A DNA stretch of 61,595 nt, from positions 1 to 61,595 of IMG/VR virus record IMGVR_UViG_3300049749_000001. The stretch is one strand, 5' to 3'. The stretch's first letter is position 1; every line of letters begins with the position of its first letter. The position numbers and the translations under genes were made by a program. The DNA is from a virus. This document shows, piece after piece, positions 60,001 to 61,595 of the stretch. Below the pieces are notes generated by a model. That model did not search any database. It saw only the letters and a program-made list of their open reading frames with translations, and had not been told where the DNA came from.

Positions 60001-61595
60001 GCAAAGGTCTATCACAAGGATCACGGCTGGATGACGCCAGCGGAAGCGAAAGAGCGGATAGCGGAATGGAAGGCTCACGCGCAAGCGCAGGGAAAGGACC
60101 AAGCCATACGCAGCGAGAACAGCCAGAAGGTTGTGCTATCCCTGTTTGACTTGACCGGCGAATGGTCAAAGCCGTGGGAAGAGGCGGGCTATCAGGTCTA
60201 TCGCTTCGATATCCAGAACGACGCCGAAACCGGCGATGTGAATAACTTCTCATCGGAATTCTTCTCTGACTGGTTCGGGGATTTCGAGGGACAGGACATA
60301 TACGCCATTCTTGCCGCGTGCCCGTGCACTGACTTTGCCGGATCCGGGGCGCGTCACTTCGCCGCAAAGGATGATGACGGCCGCACCGTGGCCAGCGTCA
60401 AGCTGGTTCATAAAACCCTTGCAACCATCGAGCACTTCAAGCCCTCCTTATGGGCACTGGAAAACCCGGTAGGCCGCATCGAGAACCTGGGCGGGCTTCC
60501 ACCGTGGCGCCTCTCGTTCGATCCTAACCACCTTGGCGATCCCTACACGAAAAAGACGCTGATATGGGGACGCTTCAACGGCGATCTTCCCGTGGCGCCG
60601 GTAGAGCCGACTGAAGGCTCAAAGATGCACAGCCAATACGGCGGCAAGAGCATTGCCACCAAGAACGCACGCTCTGTCACGCCCGAAGGGTTCAGCTATG
60701 GATTTTTCATGGCGAACAATGCGCACGACCACCGGGCGATGGCGATAGCGAACAAGTACGACAGGCTGGATCCTGCCCTTATCGAGCAAGCAGTCAATGC
60801 GGGCGTGACGGAGCAACAAATCAACGATGCGGTAGAAGATTTCTACTACATGGACCTGGACGATGACGCCGCAAACCAGGCTATCGGGGACTTGATTGCA
60901 TCGCCGCCAGCCAAGGCAAAGCCCAAGCAGTACGACGCCTACAAAAAGGCTATCCAGGATGCCAAGGGCGATATTCCCGCAGGGATGCGCCAGCAGATTG
61001 AAATGGATATCCGGCTTGAAGATGGCGAAGCAGAGAGTTTGCTTCTCATTGCCGACAGCCTGAAGGCCAAAAAGCCCTCTACCGATGTGGCCGTATCGAA
61101 CAAGAAGGAGGAACCAAAGCAAACGCTGGTAGCGGATGACTTCACTTCCGACGAGCTTATATCCCTCTTCGGGCGCTATACCCGGCAACGGCTGGACTTC
61201 TCGACCAGCAAGCAGGACGGCAAAACCCTCGTCAAGCACGACGGCAAGGTGCTTGTGATAACGGATGGTCCCGCAACGTCCAGCAAGGTAGTGGTGGAGT
61301 TAGGCAAAAAGCTGGTTGCCACCCTGCGCAGCGAGGGCAAGACGGTACAGCACGACGTTAACAAAATGTCGCTGGATGAATTCTCAATCGCCTATGCACT
61401 GCAGGGGATACTCAAGGATTTCGAGGTTTCCGGCGAAGAAATCGGCACGGTTATCAAGCCTGGGGTTGGCGGCACACTTACCGTCGACGTGGAAGAGCTC
61501 TACAAGAAGGTAAGGAAACAGGCCGACGAACAGGCGCCTCCCGCGCCAACGGAAGAACCGAACCTGAAAGCCGCAAGGGACTTGCTGGCAGAGCG
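57073..61595 (+). CDS. Giant polyvalent virion/ejection protein, N-terminal part (open to window end; continues at position 3)
   Basis: ATG at 57073 sits directly after the TAA of the upstream gene (TAAATG). I translated the frame by hand to 61595 and found no stop. The ORF track shows no closed frame-1 ORF here. The frame matches position 3 after subtracting 61,468. Confidence 0.9.
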   Translation, partial: MPLEPLIPEPDEEVRRDLIPLPKPRDFSGALGQKYGSLAGEPSSLGGEPREGTFGGFLAKKYGATEAPAQPQKAPKEDSYAGRGFKESFQQIPQLGHGLKAIAGATIEGIAGEGGLGSAMKRSGVEGYQKAGDEIAKNAKPTDSWNYSFDKAQKDGDTDALQKWVLHGIGYVGGQIGQTLLTAGIGAVGGKFVASVAAKQIAEGMVAKEAAKIATSEAGKKLARDEVQELATKAVAKKFATVGTNAALAGSALGMEGGEIGGDLAAQSVKEGRTLTGSELGKAFASTLAAGGLEFVGDRLGLDILLGKSPLLKPAASAPGVSGRIQRGAIAGTAAAPIEGATEFGQTMIEEYGKGNDPFSPETIHHAKDAGALGVLGGGLAGGVGGFMSPQQQEAEQAPPKQPDPLGLPQLPNEPFIVFPDGTTGTRRQADEYINGLPPEQQPAARAKLMGLGPQDATINGKPARQQSNATLNYVLKRGGLRAQAAAEAELKRRAAEGVDPEVADAPETTAEAVSTIIATGREKAAEIHAGADGTQVPDEPTPEPVGTLNAQMAAFAEGRKPGVLLTPGEPMPTSLPPDAKTAGIPGHGTLIYRDDATLQAALNGQLGTALGYGIDEKPNSTLAVTARDANGTVIQDVLTDGSEDVNKAAATVAGPDGTVEVRPAAEAMAEREQAKAPRFKVNAKISPDHNPIEESLRARVEDALNNHPDSYHLSKDGFIGLPKKEGNNAGGSFKVEADGSVRMFRDNGFGFNNTMTNASIEKTLKQWLKDVDEKKTSVSQARLTENVSKSGQTPHDEDRAALVAKDPNTQFKVNSIVALTGQHEISEDLRARVEHALNNSRDSYEVVHDRIRLLPAKDRFGGQGEFLVKEDGTVWLLGDDDHRWGSTMSQASVNKTLKDWLKDVDAKKSAPQKPQKPQKPDTPDTPETLGVDDKELAKIVQEFNSRQEAMFEDEQAVTNIFVGPTKKEIVRLADKAKVYHKDHGWMTPAEAKERIAEWKAHAQAQGKDQAIRSENSQKVVLSLFDLTGEWSKPWEEAGYQVYRFDIQNDAETGDVNNFSSEFFSDWFGDFEGQDIYAILAACPCTDFAGSGARHFAAKDDDGRTVASVKLVHKTLATIEHFKPSLWALENPVGRIENLGGLPPWRLSFDPNHLGDPYTKKTLIWGRFNGDLPVAPVEPTEGSKMHSQYGGKSIATKNARSVTPEGFSYGFFMANNAHDHRAMAIANKYDRLDPALIEQAVNAGVTEQQINDAVEDFYYMDLDDDAANQAIGDLIASPPAKAKPKQYDAYKKAIQDAKGDIPAGMRQQIEMDIRLEDGEAESLLLIADSLKAKKPSTDVAVSNKKEEPKQTLVADDFTSDELISLFGRYTRQRLDFSTSKQDGKTLVKHDGKVLVITDGPATSSKVVVELGKKLVATLRSEGKTVQHDVNKMSLDEFSIAYALQGILKDFEVSGEEIGTVIKPGVGGTLTVDVEELYKKVRKQADEQAPPAPTEEPNLKAARDLLAE
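57540..58230 (+). other. Gly/Ala-rich hydrophobic (glycine-zipper-like) region of the giant protein
   Basis: Segments WVLHGIGYVGGQIGQTLLTAGIGAVGGKFVASVAA, TVGTNAALAGSALGMEGGEIGG, AFASTLAAGGLEFVG and AGALGVLGGGLAGGVGGFM. Confidence 0.5.
59110..59799 (+). repeat. Tandem duplication of a roughly 97-aa module inside the giant protein (period 396 nt)
   Basis: Copy 1 is FKVNAKIS..SLRARVEDALNNHPDSY..GGSFKVEADGSVRMF..MTNASIEKTLKQWLKDVDEKK. Copy 2 is FKVNSIVA..DLRARVEHALNNSRDSY..QGEFLVKEDGTVWLL..MSQASVNKTLKDWLKDVDAKK. Confidence 0.85.
59806..59859 (+). repeat. In-frame 9-nt microrepeats (CCACAAAAG x3, then CCTGATACC x2 plus CCTGAAACC)
   Basis: Encodes PQKPQKPQKPDTPDTPET, a linker between the duplicated modules and the C5-MTase-like domain. 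Confidence 0.9.
60124..60720 (+). other. DNA cytosine-C5 methyltransferase-like domain of the giant protein
   Basis: VLSLFDLTGEWSKPWEEAGYQV resembles motif I. ACPCTDFAGSG resembles the motif IV PC-x-x-F. ALENPVG resembles the motif VI ENV. The downstream blocks KKTLIWG and RSVTPEGFSYGF are also present. Confidence 0.6.
61469..61595. repeat. Terminal direct repeat, second copy of 1-127
   Basis: Exact 127-nt match to the window start. Confidence 0.95.

What the first reader, a model, noticed from the sequence alone, without database searches (positions are those of the whole stretch)
60124..60720. A second, C5-cytosine-type methyltransferase-like domain embedded in the N-terminal third of the same protein
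VLSLFDLTGEW... (motif I-like), ACPCTDFAGSG (PC motif) and ALENPVG (ENV-like) appear in canonical order within about 115 aa. KKTLIWG and RSVTPEGF follow. There is very little room for a target-recognition domain. A virion-borne protein carrying both an m5C-type and an m6A-type methylase, in a genome that also has a free-standing beta-class MTase at 28996-30060, implies three distinct modification activities. A C5-MTase fold fused inside an ejection protein is unusual. Motif I is degenerate (F-D-L-T-G rather than F-x-G-x-G), so the domain might instead be a non-catalytic DNA-binding relic.
Basis: partly seen in the sequence, partly recalled or inferred. Interest (0 to 1): 0.65.

Follow-up and report, generated by a model that had tools for sequence, protein, structure and literature searches.

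The report
Minimal cytosine methylase in giant virion protein
A compact enzyme module that looks like an intact DNA cytosine-5 methyltransferase, but has no target-recognition domain, sits inside a 5,877-residue phage protein that is probably injected with the DNA; the same module recurs in hundreds of such giant proteins and as a separate plasmid gene, so it is real and probably active, but not rare.

Summary
All quoted motifs lie at 60124-60720, in frame, in a 5,877-aa ORF that wraps the circular 61.5-kb phage genome.

The segment is the core of a self-contained cassette of about 350 aa (giant aa ~930-1280). Three lines of evidence assign it to the C5-cytosine methyltransferase fold:
- Pfam PF00145 is the only family hit, just at the cut-off.
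- phrog_757 matches at 1.5e-43.
- The AlphaFold model (pLDDT 86) matches M.HaeIII, M.HhaI and viral C5-MTases.

The catalytic Pro-Cys, the Glu-Asn-Pro motif and both AdoMet-binding aspartates are invariant in 79 viral copies, and dN/dS is about 0.07. A dead relic is therefore unlikely. There is no target-recognition domain: about 39 residues lie between motifs VIII and IX.

The fusion is not unusual. 79 of the 80 best IMG/VR relatives, and 133 of 149 representative clusters, lie inside giant polyvalent proteins. The cassette is also a stand-alone gene (66-85% identical) in plasmid regions beside ssb, partition, mobilisation and, at two loci, anti-CRISPR genes.

Most likely it is an injected anti-restriction m5C methylase with relaxed specificity. 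Activity and specificity are untested. I rate it a new member of a known kind, of moderate interest.

The parts
57073..61595 (+). N-terminal 1,507 codons of the 5,877-aa giant polyvalent ORF. Positions 61469-61595 repeat window 1-127 (the terminal repeat).
1..13238 (+). Continuation of the same ORF across the circular junction, in frame from nt 3, with the stop at 13236-13238.
59860..60903 (+). Whole methylase cassette (giant aa 930-1277): a helical N-terminal extension, the ~200-aa C5-MTase-like core and a helical C-terminal extension. It is collinear with stand-alone plasmid genes of 330-410 aa.
60124..60720 (+). C5-MTase-like catalytic core (aa 1018-1216), the interval of the finding.
60139..60165 (+). 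Motif I variant S-L-F-D-L-T-G-E-W (aa 1023-1031). S, F, D, G and W are invariant in 79 viral copies. The first Gly of FxGxG is replaced.
60208..60210 (+). Asp1046 at the end of strand 2 (F-D-I-Q), in the position of the motif II acidic residue that binds the AdoMet ribose. Invariant 79/79.
   Evidence: assignment by position, inferred
60232..60237 (+). Motif III, G-D (aa 1054-1055). It aligns with the GD of M.HhaI 'GDI'. Asp is invariant 79/79.
60322..60327 (+). Motif IV, Pro1084-Cys1085, the predicted catalytic nucleophile. Invariant 79/79, and aligned to the M.HhaI P80-C81 dipeptide.
60460..60468 (+). Motif VI, Glu1130-Asn-Pro (ENP in place of ENV). Invariant 79/79, and aligned to the M.HhaI ENV motif.
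60544..60558 (+). Motif VIII-like Y-T-K-K-T (aa 1158-1162), aligned to M.HhaI Q-K-R-E-R. Thr1159 and Lys1160 are invariant. The canonical arginines are absent.
60670..60693 (+). Motif IX-like R-S-V-T-P-E-G-F (aa 1200-1207). It lies only ~39 residues after motif VIII, so there is no TRD.
   Evidence: assignment by resemblance, inferred
2823..3332 (+). Gamma-class N6-adenine MTase domain of the same protein (Eco57I/MTS/N6_Mtase hits; NPPF motif).
4896..6731 (+). SNF2/ResIII/Helicase_C helicase of the DarB-type dyad.
9945..10334 (+). ART-PolyVal ADP-ribosyltransferase domain.
12312..12899 (+). LPD38, a domain associated with large polyvalent proteins.
28996..30060 (+). Free-standing beta-class N6/N4 DNA methylase (PF01555, 173 bits), the third MTase-type module in the genome.

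Best explanation
Giant-protein residues ~930-1280 form an intact, self-contained minimal cytosine-5 DNA methyltransferase cassette with no target-recognition domain. It is one interchangeable effector module of a 5,877-aa DarB-like polyvalent virion protein.

Proposed mechanism:
1. The giant protein is packaged in the podovirus particle and enters the cell with the DNA. This is inferred from homologous giants found in virions.
2. The module works either within the polyprotein or after proteolytic release. It binds host AdoMet through the variant motif I, Asp1046 and Asp1055.
3. It flips a cytosine, attacks C6 with Cys1085, uses Glu1130 as the general acid and transfers a methyl group to C5.
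4. Because the ~100-residue TRD of canonical enzymes is missing, I predict a very short or relaxed recognition sequence. One enzyme would then mask many restriction sites on the incoming genome before any phage gene is expressed.

Shown here: the fold, motif conservation, purifying selection, the modular distribution, and stand-alone plasmid copies beside ssb, partition and mobilisation genes (and, at two loci, anti-CRISPR genes).

Inferred, not shown: packaging and injection of this particular protein, AdoMet use, methyl transfer, DNA as substrate, low specificity, and the anti-restriction role.
For: Fold:
- PF00145 is the only Pfam family hit. It scores 23.0 bits on the cut-out against a cut-off of 22, and 22.4 bits in a six-frame scan. 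40 of 52 family members hit it at E <= 0.01.
- phrog_757 'DNA methyltransferase' scores 1.5e-43.
- The AF2 model has pLDDT 85.9 and pTM 0.88.
- Foldseek against PDB puts M.HaeIII (1dct) top with probability 1.00, followed by M.HhaI (0.95) and ZMET2 (0.97). The other hits are low-probability noise.
- Foldseek against BFVD returns almost only viral cytosine-5 MTases at probability >= 0.9.
- hhalign of the broadened family against M.HhaI (sequence verified) aligns motifs I, III, IV, VI and VIII in order, with E = 1.4e-4.

Function retained:
- The F/D/G/W of motif I, Asp1046, Asp1055, Pro-Cys1085, Glu1130-Asn-Pro, Thr-Lys1160, Arg1200, Thr1203 and Phe1207 are invariant in 79 of 79 viral copies.
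- dN/dS is 0.06-0.09.
- The cassette is the only segment, or by far the best conserved one (65-76% identity), shared between otherwise unalignable giants.

Role:
- The host protein is DarB-like and polyvalent (phrog_10089, ART-PolyVal, LPD38).
- The giant of the Bcep22-like phage JC1 was found in purified virions by mass spectrometry (PMC9144972).
- The phage 8P homologue that carries this module is annotated as structural.
- Stand-alone copies, 66-85% identical, lie on Pseudomonas and Acinetobacter plasmids beside ssb, parA, KorA, mobC/relaxase and, at two loci, Pfam-assigned anti-CRISPR (AcrF1/AcrF3) genes.
- Orphan MTases are an enriched class in plasmid leading-region anti-defence islands (PMC11541004).
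Against: - No activity data exist for any member that I could find.
- The Pfam score is only at the threshold, and 20.2 bits (below it) for the 1,507-aa N-terminal part of the ORF that lies in the window (P0001). TIGR00675 scores 14.8 bits against a cut-off of 100.65.
- Sequence searches of the PDB find no C5-MTase.
- The first Gly of FxGxG is lost in this clade.
- The Q-x-R-x-R arginines of motif VIII are replaced by T-K-K-T. From my own knowledge of the M.HhaI literature, Arg165 matters for catalysis.
- A motif X (GN[AS]V) could not be assigned.
- No TRD is present, and how a C5-MTase would hold and flip DNA without one is unknown.
- The BASEL study found no simple link between the methyltransferase genes of Drexlerviridae, the phage family that abundantly encodes C5-cytosine methyltransferases, and restriction resistance (PMC8594841).
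Confidence: 0.62

Rival explanations
1. The module is catalytically active but is not an ordinary dsDNA m5C methylase. It has the C5-MTase fold and nucleophile but acts on a different substrate (single-stranded or transiently unwound entering DNA, or RNA/tRNA as DNMT2 does), or it performs different C5 chemistry or uses a different cofactor.
For: - There is no TRD, the motif VIII arginines are replaced by Lys/Thr, the first Gly of motif I is lost, and motif X cannot be assigned.
- Stand-alone copies lie beside ssb and relaxase/mobilisation genes, and plasmid leading regions enter the recipient cell as ssDNA. A plasmid MTase has been reported to methylate entering ssDNA (cited in PMC11541004).
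Against: - The AdoMet-contacting acidic residues and the PC/ENx pair are those of DNA C5-MTases.
- All structural neighbours with high probability are DNA cytosine MTases.
- There is no positive evidence for an alternative substrate.
Confidence: 0.22
2. The module is a non-catalytic relic. It is a former C5-MTase fold kept as a DNA-binding or base-flipping clamp, or as a structural spacer in the ejection protein.
For: - Motif I departs from FxGxG.
- The Pfam score is marginal.
- Most of a polyvalent protein is linker or unknown domains.
Against: - The nucleophile Cys, the ENP Glu and both AdoMet-site Asp residues are invariant in 79 viral and 52 database sequences.
- dN/dS is about 0.07.
- It is the best conserved segment of otherwise hypervariable giants.
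- It is maintained as an independent gene on plasmids.
- Distant small phage members have the canonical F-D-G-S-G.
Confidence: 0.1
3. The motifs are a chance resemblance, or the assembly joins unrelated genes, so no real domain exists.
For: None beyond the marginal Pfam score.
Against: - phrog_757 scores E = 1.5e-43.
- There are thousands of homologues.
- The fold model is confident.
- The same architecture appears in 79 independent viral contigs and in cultured Pseudomonas phage 8P.
Confidence: 0.01

Closest known systems
Canonical bacterial C5-cytosine DNA methyltransferases (M.HhaI, M.HaeIII; Pfam PF00145)
   Same: It has the same fold by Foldseek. Motifs I, III, IV (PC), VI (ENx) and VIII occur in the same order, and the acidic residues at the AdoMet-binding positions are present.
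   Different: The core is about 200 aa instead of 320 or more. There is no TRD: about 39 residues lie between motifs VIII and IX, against roughly 105 in M.HhaI by my residue count in the verified sequence. Motif I has lost its first Gly, motif VIII has Lys/Thr instead of Arg, and motif X is not assignable. It carries extra helical extensions at both ends. Family-model scores are at or below the cut-offs.
Small phage 'Dcm-like' methyltransferases of phrog_757 (e.g. Azospirillum phage Cd gp13, Klebsiella phage KL_14, Salmonella phage FSL SP-101 Dcm, rV5-like ime_145)
   Same: It shares the TRD-less core and the same motif set (FPPCT, ENPV, Y-x-K-x-T-C-x-W, RS-x-TP-x-GF). The family is found in 1,422 GenBank phage records.
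   Different: Those are free-standing proteins of 201-254 aa, only 27-38% identical, with the canonical F-D-G-S-G motif I and without the N- and C-terminal helical extensions. I found none that has been characterised experimentally.
Stand-alone 'DNA cytosine methyltransferase' genes of Pseudomonas, Acinetobacter, Pandoraea and Cupriavidus plasmids (e.g. WP_231405948.1 on pP33-1)
   Same: They are 66-85% identical over the whole cassette, extensions included. It is the same unit, merely unfused.
   Different: They are separate genes of 330-410 aa, expressed after entry, next to ssb, partition and mobilisation genes (and anti-CRISPR genes at two loci). They are not delivered pre-made inside a virion protein.
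DarB of phage P1 and the DarB-like giants of Bcep22-like podoviruses (Bcep22 gp75, JC1 gp69); 'polyvalent proteins' of Iyer et al. 2017
   Same: The host protein has the N6A-MTase plus SNF2 helicase dyad, ART-PolyVal and LPD38. The genome has a P22-type portal protein gene, and the giant gene follows the virion genes, as in Bcep22-like podoviruses. JC1 gp69 is virion-associated by mass spectrometry.
   Different: Bcep22 gp75 has no C5 module. The main text of the 2017 survey discusses only adenine MTases and never mentions a cytosine MTase domain.
Pseudomonas phage 8P gene 8P_023 (5,145-aa 'structural protein')
   Same: It is the only cultured-phage record in the collection with a close fused copy. 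The module lies at aa 1028-1318 and is 50-57% identical, upstream of a DarB-type dyad.
   Different: The rest of the protein is only partly alignable (38-50% identity in patches). The module's role was not noted in the record.

Membership tests
C5-cytosine DNA methyltransferase (PF00145 / Dcm superfamily) | Scores above the curated family-model cut-off | tested here: inconclusive
   PF00145 scores 23.0 bits (cut-out), 22.8 (cassette) and 22.4 (six-frame) against a cut-off of 22. It scores 20.2 on the 1,507-aa N-terminal part of the ORF (P0001), and only profile positions 25-110 of 324 match. TIGR00675 scores 14.8 against 100.65.
C5-cytosine DNA methyltransferase (PF00145 / Dcm superfamily) | Class I AdoMet-MTase fold closest to solved C5-MTases | tested here: met
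   The AF2 model has pLDDT 85.9. The best PDB match is M.HaeIII (probability 1.00), followed by M.HhaI and ZMET2. BFVD matches are viral C5-MTases.
C5-cytosine DNA methyltransferase (PF00145 / Dcm superfamily) | Motif IV Pro-Cys nucleophile and motif VI Glu-Asn-Val general acid | tested here: met
   P1084-C1085 and E1130-N-P are invariant in 79/79 viral and 52/52 database sequences. They align to the M.HhaI PC and ENV motifs.
C5-cytosine DNA methyltransferase (PF00145 / Dcm superfamily) | Motif I F-x-G-x-G AdoMet loop | tested here: inconclusive
   This clade has F-D-x-[ST]-G-x-W, with the first Gly replaced by a variable residue. Distant small members have F-D-G-S-G.
C5-cytosine DNA methyltransferase (PF00145 / Dcm superfamily) | Motif VIII Q-x-R-x-R | tested here: not met
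   It is replaced by Y-T-K-K-T. Thr1159 and Lys1160 are invariant and no Arg is present.
C5-cytosine DNA methyltransferase (PF00145 / Dcm superfamily) | Variable target-recognition domain between motifs VIII and IX | tested here: not met
   Only about 39 residues lie between K1161 and R1200. Small phage members are 201-254 aa in total.
C5-cytosine DNA methyltransferase (PF00145 / Dcm superfamily) | Forms 5-methylcytosine in DNA with AdoMet | not testable with these tools
   This needs enzyme assays or methylome sequencing. No published assay was found for any member.
phrog_757 small phage DNA methyltransferase family | Near full-length match to the family profile | tested here: met
   E = 1.5e-43, profile positions 9-231 of 247.
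Polyvalent proteins (Iyer et al. 2017), DarB-like branch | A very large multidomain protein of a phage or conjugative element that combines unrelated effector domains, including polyvalent-specific domains | tested here: met
   It has 5,877 aa, with LPD38, ART-PolyVal and the N6A-MTase plus SNF2 dyad, and it matches phrog_10089 'DarB-like antirestriction'.
Polyvalent proteins (Iyer et al. 2017), DarB-like branch | Packaged in the virion and delivered with the DNA | not testable with these tools
   This is only an analogy. JC1 gp69 was found in virions by mass spectrometry, 8P_023 is annotated as structural, and the gene position resembles that of Bcep22 gp75, after the virion structural genes.

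The most novel reading that the evidence does not exclude
The cassette, and with it the whole phrog_757 clade, is a cytosine-5 methyltransferase that needs no target-recognition domain. It would methylate cytosines with little or no sequence context, possibly on single-stranded or just-entered DNA. That would make it the cytosine counterpart of the non-specific adenine methylases M.EcoGII and M.EcoGIX. Delivered pre-made in the virion, it would act as a broad-spectrum shield against restriction, and it could also serve as a tool enzyme for footprinting.
Probability: 0.25. Interest if true: 0.7.

Novelty: new member of a known kind. Interest (0 to 1): 0.4.

Why it matters
If active, this would be the smallest C5-cytosine methyltransferase design I know of (from my own knowledge of the field; no size survey was run). 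It would show that mobile elements use the same anti-restriction enzyme in two ways: as an early gene on plasmids, and as a pre-made passenger domain in phage particles.

The cassette is the single most conserved piece of otherwise hypervariable giant proteins, which marks it as a priority for biochemical testing. A cytosine methylase without a TRD and with relaxed specificity would also be a useful reagent.

The locus itself is one of hundreds of similar ones. Automated pipelines already call the stand-alone gene a 'DNA cytosine methyltransferase', so the present instance does not define a new kind of system.

Tried and rejected
- Sequence searches of the PDB with the segment (phmmer) and with the family profile gave only spurious hits (DHFR, GCN4 chimeras) and no C5-MTase. 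The relationship is visible only through Pfam/PHROG profiles and through the fold.
- hhalign of the narrow 52-sequence profile against M.HhaI was weak (probability 11%). It rose to 52% (E = 1.4e-4) only after I added representative and small-phage sequences. The alignment past motif VIII is unreliable, so I do not assign motif X.
- NCBIfam gave nothing above its cut-off.
- I looked for a separate subunit that might supply a TRD, as in two-subunit C5-MTases. The neighbour genes of stand-alone copies are unrelated to one another: a coiled-coil protein in Pseudomonas and a canonical 441-aa C5-MTase in Acinetobacter. I rejected that idea.
- I tested whether the module is a standard part of Bcep22-type giants. 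Bcep22 gp75 lacks it.
- I tested whether it is obligatorily paired with the DarB N6A-MTase/helicase dyad. Only 25 of 85 giants of 3,000 aa or more have both.
- Literature searches found no experimental characterisation. They also found no mention of a cytosine MTase domain in the main text of the polyvalent-protein survey. The figures and supplements of that paper were not searched.
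Full report
**Context.** The window is a complete IMG/VR viral record of 61,595 nt with a 127-nt direct terminal repeat, so it represents a circle of 61,468 nt. The ORF starting at 57073 has no stop before the window end. It continues in frame from nt 3 to the stop at 13236-13238. Joined on the circle, it gives one protein of 5,877 aa. The finding's interval, 60124-60720, corresponds to residues 1018-1216.

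**Observation.** Every quoted string is present in that frame:
- VVLSLFDLTGEW at residues 1020-1031
- AACPCTDFAGSG at 1081-1092
- ALENPVG at 1128-1134
- KKTLIWG at 1160-1166
- RSVTPEGF at 1200-1207

**Family assignment by sequence.**
- Pfam gives PF00145 (C-5 cytosine DNA methylase) as the only relevant family, right at the gathering threshold. It scores 23.0 bits on a 253-aa cut-out, 22.8 on the cassette, 22.4 in a six-frame genome scan, and 20.2 on the 1,507-aa fragment, against a cut-off of 22.
- The match covers only profile positions 25-110 of 324, which is motifs II to VI.
- NCBIfam TIGR00675 is far below its cut-off.
- phrog_757 'DNA methyltransferase' matches at 1.5e-43 over almost its whole 247-position profile.
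- Of 52 aligned family members scanned individually, 40 hit PF00145 at E <= 0.01, and no other family recurs.

**Family assignment by fold.**
- An AlphaFold2 model of residues 925-1285, built on a 52-sequence alignment, is confident: pLDDT 85.9 and pTM 0.88.
- Against the PDB, the best match is M.HaeIII (1dct, probability 1.00, 198 columns), with M.HhaI (0.95) and maize ZMET2 (0.96-0.97). All other listed hits are aminotransferases with RMSD near 20 Å and low probability, which I take as noise.
- Against BFVD, essentially every hit with probability >= 0.9 is a viral cytosine-5 DNA methyltransferase. The top two are pieces of giant proteins from uncultured Caudovirales.
- hhalign of a broadened family alignment against it aligns the motifs in order, at E = 1.4e-4 and probability 52%:

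| Motif | This module | M.HhaI |
|---|---|---|
| I | SLFD..G | DLFAGLGG |
| III | GD | GD |
| IV | PC..F..SG | PC..F..SG |
| VI | ENP | ENV |
| VIII | PYTKKT | PQKRER |

- Sequence-only searches of the PDB fail, so the relationship is remote but consistent.

**Anatomy of the unit.**
- The real unit is larger than the finding. Stand-alone homologues of 330-410 aa align end to end with giant residues ~930-1277.
- A helical N-terminal extension of about 90 aa and a helical C-terminal extension of about 60 aa flank a core of about 200 aa.
- Between the motif VIII-like YTKKT (1158-1162) and the motif IX-like RSVTPEGF (1200-1207) there are about 39 residues. M.HhaI has about 105 by my residue count in the verified sequence.
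- Small phage members (201-254 aa) consist of the core alone and end a few residues after the '..AN' that follows motif IX.
- I could not assign a motif X.

**Relic or enzyme?**
- In 79 viral copies the following are invariant: Ser/Phe/Asp/Gly/Trp of the motif I variant, Asp1046, Asp1055, Pro1084-Cys1085-Thr, Glu1130-Asn-Pro, Thr1159-Lys1160, Arg1200, Thr1203 and Phe1207. The 52 database sequences show the same pattern.
- dN/dS against seven viral relatives is 0.06-0.09, although dS is saturated.
- When the whole 5,877-aa protein is compared with other complete giants, this cassette is the only alignable segment (L006, L032) or the best conserved one by far. It is 65-76% identical, against 24-40% for the DarB dyad and nothing elsewhere.
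- The 'degenerate' motif I is a fixed clade feature. Distant small members carry the canonical F-D-G-S-G.
- These facts argue strongly for a selected catalytic function. The caveats are the lost first glycine, Lys/Thr in place of the motif VIII arginines, and the absent TRD.

**Is the fusion unusual? No.**
- A pattern scan of IMG/VR found 139 relatives. Of the best 80 loci, 79 have the module inside ORFs of 1,400 to more than 5,900 aa, many of them cut by the 10-kb flank. The module lies 360-2,235 aa from the ORF start. One locus is a stand-alone 382-aa gene.
- A full HMMER scan of 1.84 billion representative proteins found 2,167 hits, 516 of them at E <= 1e-30. Of the 149 new best representatives, 133 are 1,000 aa or longer, 85 are 3,000 aa or longer (maximum 7,176), and 12 are shorter than 600 aa.
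- Only 25 of the 85 giants also carry the DarB-type N6A-MTase/helicase dyad. In all 25 the C5 module lies N-terminal to it. About half carry the zincin-like, ART or LPD38 modules.
- The cassette is therefore a shuffled effector module, not a fixed partner of the adenine methylase.
- Among GenBank phages, only Pseudomonas phage 8P has a close fused copy (8P_023, 5,145 aa, annotated 'structural protein'). Bcep22 gp75 lacks it.
- A further 1,421 phage records carry distant stand-alone versions at 27-38% identity. These include Vequintavirus, Webervirus, Jerseyvirus, Arthrobacter phages and Campylobacter phages.

**Stand-alone plasmid copies.**
- 2,305 proteins in the 90% cluster database match. 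The best 120 listed are 66-85% identical over the full query. Where they have a name, NCBI calls them 'DNA cytosine methyltransferase'. They come from Pseudomonas, Pandoraea, Cupriavidus and Acinetobacter.
- 266 PLSDB plasmids carry a match.
- Their neighbours are ssb, parA/parB, KorA, mobC/relaxase, HigBA and, at two loci, Pfam-assigned AcrF1/AcrF3 anti-CRISPR genes. This matches the published picture of anti-defence islands in plasmid leading regions, where orphan MTases are an enriched class (PMC11541004).
- No conserved partner gene that could supply a TRD was found.

**Host protein.**
- The rest of the giant carries, by Pfam: an Eco57I/N6_Mtase-type adenine methylase with NPPF, ResIII/SNF2/Helicase_C, ART-PolyVal and LPD38.
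- Its best PHROG is phrog_10089 'DarB-like antirestriction'.
- The genome has a P22-type portal and a free-standing PF01555 methylase at 28996-30060.
- The giant of the Bcep22-like podovirus JC1 was detected in CsCl-purified virions with 51 unique peptides (PMC9144972).
- The founding survey of polyvalent proteins describes the adenine-MTase/helicase dyad and proposes processing by zincin-like peptidases. Its main text never mentions a cytosine methylase domain (PMC5512222).

**Mechanism proposed.**
- The giant is packaged and enters with the DNA.
- The cassette, within the polyprotein or after proteolytic release, binds host AdoMet and methylates cytosine C5 through Cys1085 and Glu1130.
- Lacking a TRD, it probably reads a very short context and so masks many restriction sites before phage transcription begins.
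- Only the fold, conservation and distribution are shown here. Delivery, cofactor, substrate, specificity and benefit are inferred.
- I give 0.62 to an active DNA m5C methylase with an anti-restriction role.
- I give 0.22 to an active enzyme with a different substrate or chemistry.
- I give 0.10 to a non-catalytic relic.
- I give about 0.01 to chance.

**Verdict.**
- It is a real and probably functional minimal C5-MTase module.
- It is a common cassette of polyvalent proteins and plasmids, and the stand-alone form is already labelled by automated annotation.
- The new points are descriptive: the cassette's modular spread, its extreme conservation relative to its hosts, and its absence from the published text on polyvalent domains.
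- Earlier notes of this scan on the plasmid versions reached similar readings. I treated them as leads and re-derived the evidence independently.

Noticed in passing
window 59101-59808 (giant aa ~677-912): Immediately upstream of the methylase cassette lie two tandem copies of a domain of about 100 aa (PRFKVN...LKDVDEKK and TQFKVN...LKDVDAKK). They are 45% identical (E = 1e-27). The domain has no Pfam hit and no phmmer match in 149 other giant proteins that carry the cassette.
   Followed up: partly
L002 10001-21056 and L003 (P. aeruginosa contigs): The stand-alone copy of the cassette sits in a run of small genes. These include Pfam-assigned AcrF3 or AcrF1 anti-CRISPRs, KorA, HigB/HTH, SSB, ParA, an LPD7 protein and an MvaT-like gene. 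This looks like a plasmid anti-defence island.
   Followed up: partly
L088 7806-10310 (A. baumannii plasmid NZ_CP104343.1): The minimal methylase gene is directly followed by a canonical 441-aa C5-MTase (FAGGGG, SPDC, ENV, R-x-R and GNSV motifs). So two unrelated cytosine methylases lie in tandem next to umuDC.
   Followed up: partly
representative proteins P0124-P0272: Only 25 of 85 cassette-bearing giants of 3,000 aa or more also have the DarB-type adenine methylase/helicase dyad. In most, the C5-like module is the only DNA methylase detected by my iterated profiles.
   Followed up: partly
L093 604-1884 (Salmonella phage FSL SP-101) and L091 619-1947 (Escherichia phage ime): In some phages the small stand-alone version overlaps the start of an SNF2-family helicase gene or a primase/helicase gene. 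This echoes the methylase-helicase pairing of DarB-type proteins.
   Followed up: no
window 8559-8576 (giant aa ~4319-4324): The zincin-like motif reads H-E-S-L-G-H (HExxxH rather than HExxH). No Pfam family was returned for this region at E <= 0.01, although an iterated profile of it finds relatives in 48 of 85 giants.
   Followed up: partly
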